In this document: positions 19,002-20,614 of the stretch, piece after piece
Layout of the letters: each line of letters begins with the position of its first letter
How positions within the stretch are numbered: the first letter of the stretch is position 1
NCBI RefSeq assembly: GCF_009914755.1
Contig: NC_060925.1
Strand: one strand, 5' to 3'
DNA from: the human T2T-CHM13v2.0 reference genome, Homo sapiens
Length of the DNA: 64,000 nucleotides
Notes under the pieces: generated by a model
Told to the model about the DNA's origin: nothing
What the model saw: only the letters and a program-made list of their open reading frames with translations
The model's database searches: none
Made by a program: the position numbers and the translations under genes

Positions 19002-20011
19002 GTACTTGCTTTAACAAATTTTAAGTAGTCAGCTCTTTTTTAAAGTTGTAAGGAGCACAAAGAGGAATAAAGGAATTTCTTTGGTTAAACAGATAGGGAA
19101 TATTTTTCCAGCCAACTTATCCCAATTGGATTTATATAGCAAACTTTCTTCTTCCAGAAATTTTTTAAGTATGTACATTCCTATGTTCCAGTTGCCACAA
19201 GATCTTGCCTCAAGATTTTCCTTTTCCTTTGCTGTAGTTTATAGCAAATACCCTCTGCCTCTGCTCTTTTTCTTCCTATTTATGCTTTTTAAATTCTTCA
19301 TAGTGTAATATATTTACACTAAAAATGGTGTTGGCTTTCTTTTGGCTTTTTTCCTCCTCTTACAGTACCAGTTTGAATTTTACCTATTGGTTGAAAAACA
19401 ATATTAACTTTGAGAGATGTAGTATAAATAGCATTGATTTGCTTGAAATTAAACTTCTGAAATGCAGGCCATCAAAACTCTTCTGAAGAGTTGTCACTCC
19501 AAGACTAGGCAAGGTTTTTTTTCTTCTTCTGGAAAGTATCAATATCAGCTTGAGTAATTTGATTTTCTTCACAATCTGTTTTTAACTCGCTATCATTTGC
19601 ATGGTGAACACTTAACTACTACTGGTCCATAAAGGTGTTGGTGGGTTGTTGTTGTTTTTATTTCACTTAAAAAAATCATTTCCCGAAAGCCTATTACAGA
19701 AATGTAACCTACTGCAGGAAGTGAGGTGATCCTTTGGAAATCTTGACTTTGTCTCTACTCTGATGATACTTTGCTTCAGGCAAGAGGTTTTTAGGTGCTG
19801 CTGAAGTTTTTGAGATCTTGGAAAATGGCGTAATAACATGACACCAGCTCTTAAGCAGCAACATCTGCTGTGGTTCAAAGCCACACAAAGAAAGCTGCTT
19901 AAGCAGTCAAATGTTTTGGACTGCACAGACATGTGTGGTTCAACTGCAAAGACTGCAGAGTAGAGGAATCTTAAAGTTTAGAGAGACTGTTAAAGACTGG
20001 AGTCAGGGAAG

Positions 20012-20614
20012 ATGAGCATCTTTAAGAAACAAACATCACCTTGTCCTCCAAGCTATCGAAGATCTTTGTCAGAACCTGCTTATGCAGATTCAGAGATAGG
20101 AACAAGTTTAAAGAGTTATCCATGGTGTGGTCCAGTGAAAAGCAAGAGGAAGAAAAATGATTCTGCTGTTTCCAATCTGGGAAAGCCACTGGGTGCTTAT
20201 CGGTGGCAGAGACATCCGAGTTTTAGGTGGAAAGGGAACAAAAGGGAGAGATTGCAGAGTAATAAAGGAGACCTGGTTGAACGACAACAACAAAAGGTCA
20301 TCCTGCCAAAGATGGTTAGTAATAATGCTTCTTCCTCTGCTGATGAGGTCCTTGGAACATCAACAGAGAAGCCACACCTGGTCAACAGCCGATCACTTCG
20401 AGCACCATTCACCAGATCTGTTTCAGAACCAGAACCCCGCTGCAGTATCCCATTTGTTAGACTGTGGCCAACTTCACTTGGGTCAGTGGAGTCTGAGCAG
20501 CAGGGATATTTCATCCGTGGCATTTTCTCTACTCTTTCCAATGGCTTCTCCAGGATGCTGAATCTAAAAGGAGAATCAACCAATGAGCCAGTAAGAGAAG
20601 GTATATTGCAATGA
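20012..20614 (+). CDS. Candidate alternative first coding exon (~193-196 aa N-terminal extension) of an unidentified host gene; 200-aa ORF if unspliced
   Basis: Longest non-repeat ORF in the window; in-frame TAA at 19991; ggaagATGa (A at -3); donors CCA|gtaaga (after 20590) and AAG|gtatat (after 20600) just before the stop; two RSxSEP motifs; sharp drop to AT-rich sequence after 20640. Confidence 0.55.
   Translation: MSIFKKQTSPCPPSYRRSLSEPAYADSEIGTSLKSYPWCGPVKSKRKKNDSAVSNLGKPLGAYRWQRHPSFRWKGNKRERLQSNKGDLVERQQQKVILPKMVSNNASSSADEVLGTSTEKPHLVNSRSLRAPFTRSVSEPEPRCSIPFVRLWPTSLGSVESEQQGYFIRGIFSTLSNGFSRMLNLKGESTNEPVREGILQ

What the first reader, a model, noticed from the sequence alone, without database searches (positions are those of the whole stretch)
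19991..20614. Hidden 200-codon ORF shaped like an alternative first coding exon in a repeat-free island
Seen: the longest non-repeat ORF in 64 kb, with an in-frame stop 21 nt upstream, A at -3 and higher GC than its flanks. Two donor-like sites lie 8 and ~5 codons before the stop (CCA|gtaaga, phase 0; AAG|gtatat, phase 1). The surrounding ~5 kb (18.45-23.45 kb) has almost no recognisable transposon, in a window otherwise full of them. Inference: an internal promoter gives the + strand host gene an isoform with a new ~195-aa N-terminus, or else this is a nested single-exon gene. I cannot name the host gene or tell whether the exon is already annotated.
Basis: partly seen in the sequence, partly recalled or inferred. 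Interest (0 to 1): 0.8.

Follow-up and report, generated by a model that had tools for sequence, protein, structure and literature searches.

The report
Annotated alternative first coding exon of RASAL2
The 200-codon reading frame is a real, already annotated alternative first coding exon of the human RASAL2 (nGAP) gene, which gives the RasGAP a different, disordered N-terminus of about 196 residues that is conserved from fish to human but has not been studied.

Summary
This is not a new feature. The ORF runs from ATG 20012 to TGA 20614, with TAA at 19991 and A at -3. It is the longest ORF outside repeats, and 0 of 200 simulated windows reached 200 codons. The donor after 20600 (GAAG|gtatat, phase 1) is exactly the end of the RefSeq exons 15281/2/3-20600. 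I located RASAL2 exon 2 about 49.7 kb downstream, outside the window. It begins cag|AT GTG AAA, so the 20600 donor reads ...PVRE-DVKGPPTHR in frame. The 20590 donor would run straight into a stop (CCA ATG TGA). The same N-terminus, joined to the same DVKGPP exon, heads predicted nGAP isoforms in mammals, platypus, turtles, lizards, birds and teleost fish. A profile search of 1.84 billion representatives gave only 13 hits. The DNA is single-copy in the genome. The peptide has no Pfam match and folds with low confidence (pLDDT 51). It carries an RSxSEP motif that is invariant from trout to human, a second RSxSxP motif in tetrapods, and an amphipathic helix. A role as a phospho-regulated (14-3-3-type) regulatory extension is my inference only. 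The annotated 5' end lies inside an Alu, and the 4.7-kb leader has 85 upstream ATGs, so the true promoter is unresolved.

The parts
15014..15322 (+). Alu element (sense orientation) that contains the annotated 5' ends of the exon (15281, 15282, 15283)
   Evidence: the sequence reads GGCCAGGTGCGGTGGCTTATGCCTGTAATCCCAGCACTTT ... GAGACTCCGTC followed by an A-rich tail. The hub's mask list gives 15014-15322. That it is an Alu is my recognition of the sequence; no repeat library was run.
15281..20011 (+). Annotated 5' leader of the alternative first exon (4731 nt). It is CpG-poor and its true extent is doubtful.
   Evidence: Exon spans 15281/2/3-20600 come from the hub table; 85 upstream ATGs, and CpG observed/expected of 0.32 or less in every 500-nt window starting between 15500 and 21250, so there is no CpG island. 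Three starts 1 nt apart look like ragged 5' ends, not a splice acceptor.
19991..19993 (+). In-frame TAA, 21 nt upstream of the start codon
20012..20600 (+). Coding part of the alternative first exon: 196 codons (MSIFKK...NEPVRE) plus the first base (G) of a split Asp codon
   Evidence: P0043; exon 2 begins AT GTG AAA; orthologues
20057..20077 (+). Motif RRSLSEP (residues 16-22). It fits RSxSxP and is conserved in tetrapods; P22 is Q in sauropsids.
   Evidence: 59 of 71 relatives match R[RG]S[LV]S[EDV][PQ]; absent from teleost sequences
20414..20431 (+). Motif RSVSEP (residues 135-140). RSxSEP is invariant from trout to human.
   Evidence: R135 S136 S138 E139 P140 invariant in 12 of 12; invariant in 17 of 17, including teleosts; 115 of 116 fetched relatives have at least one RS.S.P
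20504..20566 (+). Conserved amphipathic segment GYFIRGIFSTLSNGFSRMLNL (residues 165-185), the only predicted helix
   Evidence: helix 165-171, low confidence; highest helical hydrophobic moment, 0.565, in the window starting at 167; Y166, G170, F172, S173, S176, F179, S180 invariant in tetrapods; the pattern is kept in fish
20591..20596 (+). Donor-like gtaaga (phase 0). It lies inside codons Val-Arg of the exon and would be out of frame with exon 2.
   Evidence: CCA + ATG TGA gives a stop at once. PVRE is kept in the 5 eutherian full-length models P0002-P0006.
20601..20606 (+). Used donor gtatat after GAAG (phase 1). The intron of about 49.7 kb runs to exon 2 at window-equivalent 70263-70390, outside the window.
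   Evidence: Hub table (exon end 20600)
20612..20614 (+). TGA that closes the frame in the intron, 14 nt past the donor (relevant to an unspliced reading only)

Best explanation
Window 20012-20600 is the coding part of an alternative first exon of RASAL2 (nGAP, a Ras GTPase-activating protein of the SynGAP/DAB2IP group). A transcript that starts inside the first intron of the main transcript (NM_170692; its exon 1 lies outside the window, before it, and its exon 2 beyond the window's end) is spliced from the donor after 20600 to the gene's normal exon 2. This replaces the usual exon-1 peptide (MELSPSS...SWVRVY) with 196 other residues (MSIFKK...NEPVRE). Everything from DVKGPPTHR onward is kept: the PH-like, C2, RasGAP and C-terminal domains. 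The new N-terminus is most likely an intrinsically disordered regulatory extension held together by short linear motifs. These are one RSxSEP site invariant from fish to human, a second RSxSxP site in tetrapods, a Y-x-W and GAYRWQTHP block, and an amphipathic helix. I infer that basophilic-kinase phosphorylation of the RSxSxP serines creates docking sites of the 14-3-3 mode-1 type, and that the helix binds a membrane or a partner, which would give this isoform its own control of localisation or activity. Shown here: the ORF, the donor, the frame match with exon 2, single-copy status, and conservation of the peptide and its junction across bony vertebrates. Inferred: promoter position, translation in human tissues, disorder, phosphorylation and 14-3-3 binding.
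For: (1) The ORF and its signals are as described, and 0 of 200 simulated windows reach 200 codons. (2) The phase-1 donor equals the RefSeq exon end 20600 (hub table). (3) The stoat nGAP protein P0006 searched against the window's own genome matches residues 1-201 at chr1:177587997-177588605 (window 19997-20605) and residues 199-243 at chr1:177638259-177638393. That locus reads ...ttctcatgcag|ATGTGAAAGGACCACCC, so G|AT = Asp and the frame continues as DVKGPPTHRLSCGQ. (4) One search gave 41 hits with E of 0.001 or less. 39 carry an nGAP name, one is named 'Synaptic Ras GTPase activating protein 1' by UniRef (P0040, chicken, same N-terminus as the chicken nGAP models), and one is a 568-aa hypothetical protein (P0007). 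Identity is 78-80% in cetaceans and stoat, 48% in platypus, 45% in turtle and 38-46% in birds. (5) adds lizards. In one search, 69 of 71 fetched relatives contain DVKGPP after the homologous segment, and 65 of 71 start at or within 5 residues of the homologous Met. (6) A profile of 12 N-termini searched against 1.84 billion representatives gave 13 hits. One of them, P0086, is named Salmo trutta nGAP isoform X4. One search lists 33 teleost nGAP proteins with this N-terminus. Human and trout share 40 of 134 residues (30%). (7) Sequence this far apart is alignable only under protein-level constraint; this is inference from established knowledge of neutral divergence. (8) The ORF DNA has 1 match in the genome, itself. 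(9) There is no Pfam family. AlphaFold2 on the 12-row alignment gave mean pLDDT 51.3, pTM 0.11 and a single helix at 165-171, and 66% of residues are S/T/P/K/R/E/Q/G/N. (10) Human has RS.S.P at residues 17 and 135, and only 41 of 100000 shuffles of the peptide have two or more.
Against: No transcript, CAGE, ribosome-profiling or mass-spectrometry data could be consulted, so use of the exon in human tissues rests on the RefSeq models in the hub table. I could not see whether those are curated or predicted. All orthologous proteins are computational gene models, which favour open frames. The annotated 5' ends (15281-15283) lie in the tail of an Alu, and the 4731-nt leader holds 85 upstream ATGs. 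That would be a poor template for translation if it were real, so the promoter is not located. There is no CpG island. Human has R at residue 67, where 11 of 12 aligned sequences, and the titi monkey, have T. Human and titi monkey are 126 of 142 identical (89%), which suggests only moderate constraint. The hamster model P0008 lacks 43 residues including the invariant RSxSEP. The disorder call rests on a shallow alignment of 12 rows. The 14-3-3 reading is a motif match recalled from the literature and was not tested.
Confidence: 0.85

Rival explanations
1. The exon is an ancestral coding exon that is conserved and used in other vertebrates, but in human it is little used or decaying. On this reading the ORF is still open, the RefSeq models reflect low-level or unspliced intronic transcription, and no meaningful amount of the long-N-terminus protein is made.
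For: The annotated 5' end lies inside an Alu tail, and the 4.7-kb leader has 85 uATGs. Human differs at the nearly invariant T67. Identity to a New World monkey is only 89%. The hamster model lacks part of the exon. Six literature searches found no paper on this isoform.
Against: The human frame is intact over 200 codons, and 0 of 200 simulations reach that length. Human keeps all 31 columns that are invariant in the 12-sequence alignment, the start codon, the donor and the frame with exon 2. No frameshift or stop separates human from titi monkey over 142 residues.
Confidence: 0.09
2. This is a nested single-exon gene: an unspliced transcript is translated from 20012 to the TGA at 20614 into a free-standing 200-aa protein (...PVREGILQ).
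For: The frame closes only 14 nt after the donor, so an unspliced RNA would give a 200-aa product. The annotated exon is long and intron-like (hub table).
Against: In 69 of 71 relatives the peptide continues into the RASAL2 exon-2 sequence. The conserved peptide ends at the donor in the 5 eutherian full-length models (NEPVRE). The donor is in frame with exon 2. I did not inspect the short proteins in the profile search (123-312 aa) as free-standing genes. At least P0076 runs into DVKGPP, and P0081 is a chimeric model.
Confidence: 0.03
3. It is a chance ORF, a repeat-derived ORF or a retrocopy inside a non-coding 5' exon.
For: None beyond the fact that long introns hold many ORFs. Pfam gives no family.
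Against: 0 of 200 simulations reach 200 codons. The DNA is single-copy in the genome, and no interspersed repeat was found in 18450-23450. Protein-level homologues exist from mammals to teleosts, always at the head of nGAP.
Confidence: 0.01

Closest known systems
RefSeq RASAL2 alternative transcripts with first exon 15281/2/3-20600 (hub annotation table), and the NCBI-predicted 'ras GTPase-activating protein nGAP isoform X...' proteins of about 1380-1450 aa in other vertebrates
   Same: The exon end (20600) is identical. The same N-terminal peptide is joined to the same exon-2 sequence DVKGPPTHR. This is the same object.
   Different: Nothing structural. I could not see whether the human models are curated (NM) or predicted (XM), nor where RefSeq places their start codon. 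Cetacean and stoat models start 5 codons earlier (MESWKM); in human that position reads CTG and is preceded by TAA.
The selected RASAL2 transcript (NM_170692, hub table), whose exon 1 encodes MELSPSS...SWVRVY (seen in the hamster model P0008)
   Same: Both first exons end in phase 1 and feed the same exon 2. All catalytic and lipid-binding domains are shared: PH-like PF25321, C2, RasGAP and DAB2P_C.
   Different: The N-terminal peptides are unrelated. This one is about three times longer, basic (32 K+R against 17 D+E) and predicted to be disordered.
Alternative-promoter N-terminal isoforms of the paralogue SYNGAP1 (recalled from the literature, not consulted here)
   Same: It is the same gene family and the same strategy: different first exons put different N-termini in front of the PH/C2/GAP core.
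   Different: No sequence similarity was found. The stoat N-terminus matched only the chr1 locus in the genome, while later domains also matched loci on chr9, chr6 and chr19 (run with a stricter first look). The profile search gave 13 hits. I read 8 of them, and none carried a name or sequence of another RasGAP.
14-3-3 mode-1 phospho-motif R-S-x-pS-x-P (recalled), as used in other RasGAPs: NF1 after PKA phosphorylation, and a 14-3-3-binding site in DAB2IP/AIP1 (passages and a reference title in PMC7588890)
   Same: Human residues 17-22 (RSLSEP) and 135-140 (RSVSEP) fit the motif exactly. The second is invariant in 17 of 17 sequences from fish to human.
   Different: Neither phosphorylation nor binding has been shown for this peptide. 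The sauropsid first site ends in Q rather than P, and teleosts lack the first site.

Membership tests
Alternative first coding exon of RASAL2 | Open frame from an ATG to a GT donor, closed upstream by a stop | tested here: met
   TAA at 19991, ATG at 20012, 196 codons + 1 nt up to GAAG|gtatat at 20600
Alternative first coding exon of RASAL2 | Donor phase compatible with the next constitutive exon of the host gene | tested here: met
   exon 2 starts cag|AT GTG AAA GGA. G|AT = D gives ...PVRE-DVKGPPTHR. The rival donor at 20590 gives CCA ATG TGA (stop).
Alternative first coding exon of RASAL2 | Peptide and junction conserved in orthologues | tested here: met
   69 of 71 tetrapod relatives carry DVKGPP after the segment, and 33 teleost nGAP proteins share it. 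All are predicted models.
Alternative first coding exon of RASAL2 | It is a first exon (own transcription start), not an internal cassette | tested here: inconclusive
   The hub table gives three starts 1 nt apart (15281-15283), which look like 5' ends. However, they lie in an Alu tail, and no CAGE or RACE data were available. 65 of 71 orthologous models start at the homologous Met.
Alternative first coding exon of RASAL2 | Codon-level purifying selection (dN/dS below 1, PhyloCSF positive) | not testable with these tools
   No vertebrate DNA other than this genome is held. Only protein-level conservation could be shown.
Alternative first coding exon of RASAL2 | Translation in human cells (Ribo-seq, peptides) | not testable with these tools
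   A full-text search for three tryptic peptides found 0 papers. Supplementary tables were not searched.
14-3-3 mode-1 binding site | Sequence R-S-x-S-x-P | tested here: met
   human sites at residues 17 and 135, and 41 of 100000 shuffles have two or more. RSxSEP invariant in 17 of 17. The motif definition itself is recalled.
14-3-3 mode-1 binding site | The serine is phosphorylated and 14-3-3 binds in a phospho-dependent way | not tested
   This needs phosphoproteomics or pull-downs. No complex prediction was run.
Repeat-derived ORF or retrocopy | Further copies, or a parent gene, elsewhere in the genome | tested here: not met
   1 match (itself); residues 1-201 of the stoat protein match only this locus (stricter first look); only a (GT)n in the 5-kb island is multi-copy.

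The most novel reading that the evidence does not exclude
The exon encodes an isoform-specific regulatory N-terminus conserved across bony vertebrates. An RSxSEP serine that is invariant from fish to human, joined in tetrapods by a second RSxSxP about 118 residues upstream, would be phosphorylated and clamped by a 14-3-3 dimer. A neighbouring amphipathic helix would bind membrane or a partner. This would switch the localisation or activity of the RasGAP on and off, independently of the two RASAL2 isoforms that have been studied. No paper in the searched library describes it.
Probability: 0.3. Interest if true: 0.45.

Novelty: already known. Interest (0 to 1): 0.22.

Why it matters
RASAL2 is studied as a tumour suppressor or oncogene in several cancers (titles and abstracts listed). 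From recall, that work uses the two classical isoforms. A third N-terminal form conserved across bony vertebrates, carrying invariant phospho-motifs, could have its own regulation and tissue pattern. It would be missed by exon-1-directed reagents or guides and by isoform-blind expression measures. As a genome-scan result it is ordinary.

Tried and rejected
Pfam on the 200-aa peptide gave no family, and none for the overlapping 134-aa ORF at 20157-20561. Six full-text literature searches found nothing on this exon or isoform: RASAL2 with 'alternative promoter', with nGAP/isoform/N-terminal, with 'first exon', with 14-3-3, with 'transcript variant', and three peptide strings. PMC6600239 mentions RASAL2 only as a miR-136 target (passages). 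PMC7588890 has no passage on RASAL2 isoforms (passages). I looked by eye for a promoter signature near the ORF. A TATAAATA at about 19423 and the lack of any CpG island do not settle the start site, and I make no claim about it. I did not use the bacterial promoter scanner because it does not apply. The donor at 20590 was considered and rejected on frame. A cassette-exon reading (exon 1 spliced into this exon, as in the hamster model P0008) is blocked in human by the TAA at 19991, and an exon starting at the ATG would be 589 nt, not a multiple of 3. dN/dS could not be computed for lack of orthologous DNA. I ran no complex prediction with 14-3-3: no 14-3-3 sequence was in hand, and phospho-dependence would not be modelled.

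Full report
**The observation.** The sequence and the ORF list under the standard code with ATG starts show one ORF of 200 codons on the + strand, from ATG 20012 to TGA 20612-20614. Position -3 (20009) is A. Two GT sites lie near the end: CCA|gtaaga after 20590 (phase 0) and GAAG|gtatat after 20600 (589 nt from the ATG, so phase 1). Of the 7 ATG-ORFs of 120 aa or more in the window, only 32629-33336(-), 235 aa, is longer. In 200 first-order Markov simulations of the window, none produced an ATG-ORF of 200 aa or more; the maximum was 183 and the mean of the maxima was 120. GC is 0.446 in the ORF, against 0.337 and 0.317 in the flanks. The hub's mask list has no repeat of 100 nt or more between 15322 and 23469. 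A whole-genome search with 18450-23450 listed 40 matches: the region itself, and 39 that all fall on a (GT)n microsatellite at 22314-22364.

**What it is.** The hub's RefSeq table lists RASAL2 exons 15281-20600, 15282-20600 and 15283-20600 among 'other transcripts'. A search of about 5.8 billion proteins with the peptide (longer proteins) gave 41 hits. 39 are named as nGAP (RASAL2), one is chicken P0040, which UniRef names 'Synaptic Ras GTPase activating protein 1', and one is a 568-aa hypothetical protein from titi monkey (P0007). Identity to human is 78-80% in cetaceans and stoat, 48% in platypus, 45% in a turtle and 38-46% in birds. The sequences show the peptide at the very N-terminus, running directly into DVKGPPTHRLSCGQSPYTE... 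The hamster model P0008 shows that this is where the usual exon-1 peptide (MELSPSS...SWVRVY) joins.

**The junction in human DNA.** I searched the window's own genome with the stoat protein. Residues 1-201 match chr1:177587997-177588605 (window 19997-20605) and nowhere else. Residues 199-243 match chr1:177638259-177638393, about 6.3 kb beyond the window's end. The fetched locus reads ...ttttcccttttctcatgcag|ATGTGAAAGGACCACCCACCCACCGT... and ends ...GAGAAGGAG|gtgaga. With the 20600 donor the split codon is G|AT (Asp), and the frame reads ...NEPVRE-DVKGPPTHRL. With the 20590 donor it reads CCA ATG TGA and stops. So only the annotated donor is productive, and the 'gtaaga' is simply the Val-Arg codons of the conserved PVRE.

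**How old and how specific it is.** A second search, seeded with the chicken N-terminus (68 hits), added lizards and more turtles and birds. Of the 71 relatives then in hand, 69 contain DVKGPP after the homologous segment, and 65 start at or within five residues of the homologous Met. Sauropsids carry an extra 12-23 residues before DVKGPP. I aligned twelve N-termini (A1) and searched the profile against 1.84 billion cluster representatives. Only 13 proteins scored E of 0.001 or less. I read eight of them. One, P0086 (1409 aa), again runs into DVKGPPTHRF, and a third word-based search named it Salmo trutta nGAP isoform X4. That search listed 33 teleost nGAP proteins with the same N-terminus, from salmonids, Esox, Umbra, Toxotes and Halichoeres. 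Human and trout share 40 of 134 aligned residues.

The exon therefore predates the split between ray-finned fish and tetrapods. DNA that old is not alignable unless it is constrained, so the protein-level match is strong evidence of coding function; this step is inference. No paralogue N-terminus turned up. In one search the later domains also hit loci on chr9, chr6 and chr19. I take these, from recall, to be DAB2IP, SYNGAP1 and RASAL3. The first 201 residues hit only chr1, although that search ran with a stricter first look. The ORF DNA is single-copy, which excludes a repeat or a retrocopy.

**What the peptide looks like.** It has no Pfam family. AlphaFold2 on A1 gave mean pLDDT 51.3 and pTM 0.11, with no residue at 70 or above and one short helix at 165-171. 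The alignment is shallow, but the composition points the same way: 66% S/T/P/K/R/E/Q/G/N and 32 K+R against 17 D+E. Together these suggest a disordered, basic extension. Conservation is concentrated in short blocks: (Y/F)RRSLSE(P/Q) at 15-22, LK-Y-W at 33-38, LGAYRWQTHP at 60-69, R-PF-RS-SEP at 130-140, and EQQGYFIRGIFSTLS-GFS at 161-180.

In a 17-sequence alignment that includes five named teleosts and four unnamed fragments, RSxSEP (human 135-140) and the W of the Y-x-W block are invariant, and the helix pattern is kept. The first RRSLSE site is absent from the teleost sequences. Both human sites fit RS.S.P, and two or more such sites occur in 41 of 100000 shuffles of the peptide. 115 of the 116 fetched relatives have at least one; the exception, P0081, is a chimeric fragment that stops before the site. 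The window starting at residue 167 has the highest helical hydrophobic moment, 0.565. R-S-x-pS-x-P is, from recall, the mode-1 14-3-3 motif. The review PMC7588890 (passages) reports PKA-dependent 14-3-3 binding for NF1 and cites a paper whose title names a 14-3-3-binding site in DAB2IP/AIP1. So phospho-dependent 14-3-3 control of this isoform is a reasonable hypothesis, but an untested one.

**What stays open.** The annotated 5' ends (15281-15283) lie in the 3' tail of a sense-strand Alu at 15014-15322. The leader they imply is 4731 nt long with 85 upstream ATGs. No CpG island lies anywhere between 15.5 and 21.5 kb. I think the models' 5' extension is doubtful and that the real start is closer to the ORF, but nothing here can show that. 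If the start lies upstream of 19911, a 35-codon uORF beginning there ends at a TGA that overlaps the main ATG. Human carries R at residue 67, where 11 of 12 aligned sequences and the titi monkey have T. Human and titi monkey are 126 of 142 identical with no gaps, which indicates moderate rather than strict constraint, as is usual for disordered regions. The hamster model lacks 43 residues including RSxSEP, which could be a model artefact or a rodent lesion. All orthologues are predicted models.

**Literature.** Six full-text searches found no paper that describes this exon, its peptide or a 14-3-3 link for RASAL2. Supplementary tables, where proteomic peptides would sit, were not searched.

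**Verdict.** This is a genuine, ancient and already annotated alternative first coding exon of RASAL2. The novelty is nil as a genomic feature. There is some interest in the uncharacterised, motif-bearing N-terminus.

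Noticed in passing
window 36956-37967 (+): The other annotated alternative RASAL2 exon in the window ends AAAG|gtacta. An ATG at 37934 gives MMENALHLWEK plus one base, so it is also phase 1. It would read ...EK-DVKGPP in frame with exon 2. It may be a third, very short alternative N-terminus. I did not check it for upstream ATGs or for conservation.
   Followed up: partly
window 15014-15322 (+): This is a sense-strand Alu. 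The three annotated 5' ends of the long exon (15281-15283) fall in its 3' tail, just before the A-rich end. This suggests the models' 5' ends are set by where transcript evidence stops in a repeat, rather than by a true start site.
   Followed up: partly
window 19911-20015 (+): An upstream ORF of 35 codons starts at ATG 19911 and ends at a TGA that overlaps the main start codon (A-TGA, 20012-20015). It matters only if the transcript starts upstream of 19911.
   Followed up: no
window 20210-20212 (residue 67 of the peptide): Human has Arg in WQRHP, where 11 of 12 aligned vertebrates and the titi monkey have Thr (WQTHP). This is a lineage-specific change at a nearly invariant position.
   Followed up: no
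window 17250-18000 (+): A local GC peak (0.46-0.50) with strongly negative AT skew and low CpG lies about 2 kb upstream of the ORF. It contains a 20-nt unit repeated 2.4 times at 17912-17959. It is not in the mask list and its nature is unknown.
   Followed up: no
window 30935-34047 (-): This masked block holds the window's longest ORF (32629-33336, 235 aa), which matches reverse transcriptase PF00078 (E 1.1e-9). It is a retrotransposon remnant on the minus strand.
   Followed up: partly
protein P0008 (Cricetulus griseus model): The hamster gene model splices the usual exon 1 into this exon through an in-frame upstream stretch. It lacks 43 residues, including the invariant RSxSEP and most of the helix, and has K where W73 is invariant. 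The exon may be damaged or mis-modelled in muroid rodents.
   Followed up: no
sauropsid orthologues (P0011, P0012, P0020, P0041, P0045, P0063, P0072, P0073): Birds, turtles and lizards carry 12-23 extra residues (for example WGMDCNQIDLNT) between the end of the homologous exon and DVKGPP. Mammals and teleosts lack them. This could be an extra mini-exon or a shifted donor.
   Followed up: no
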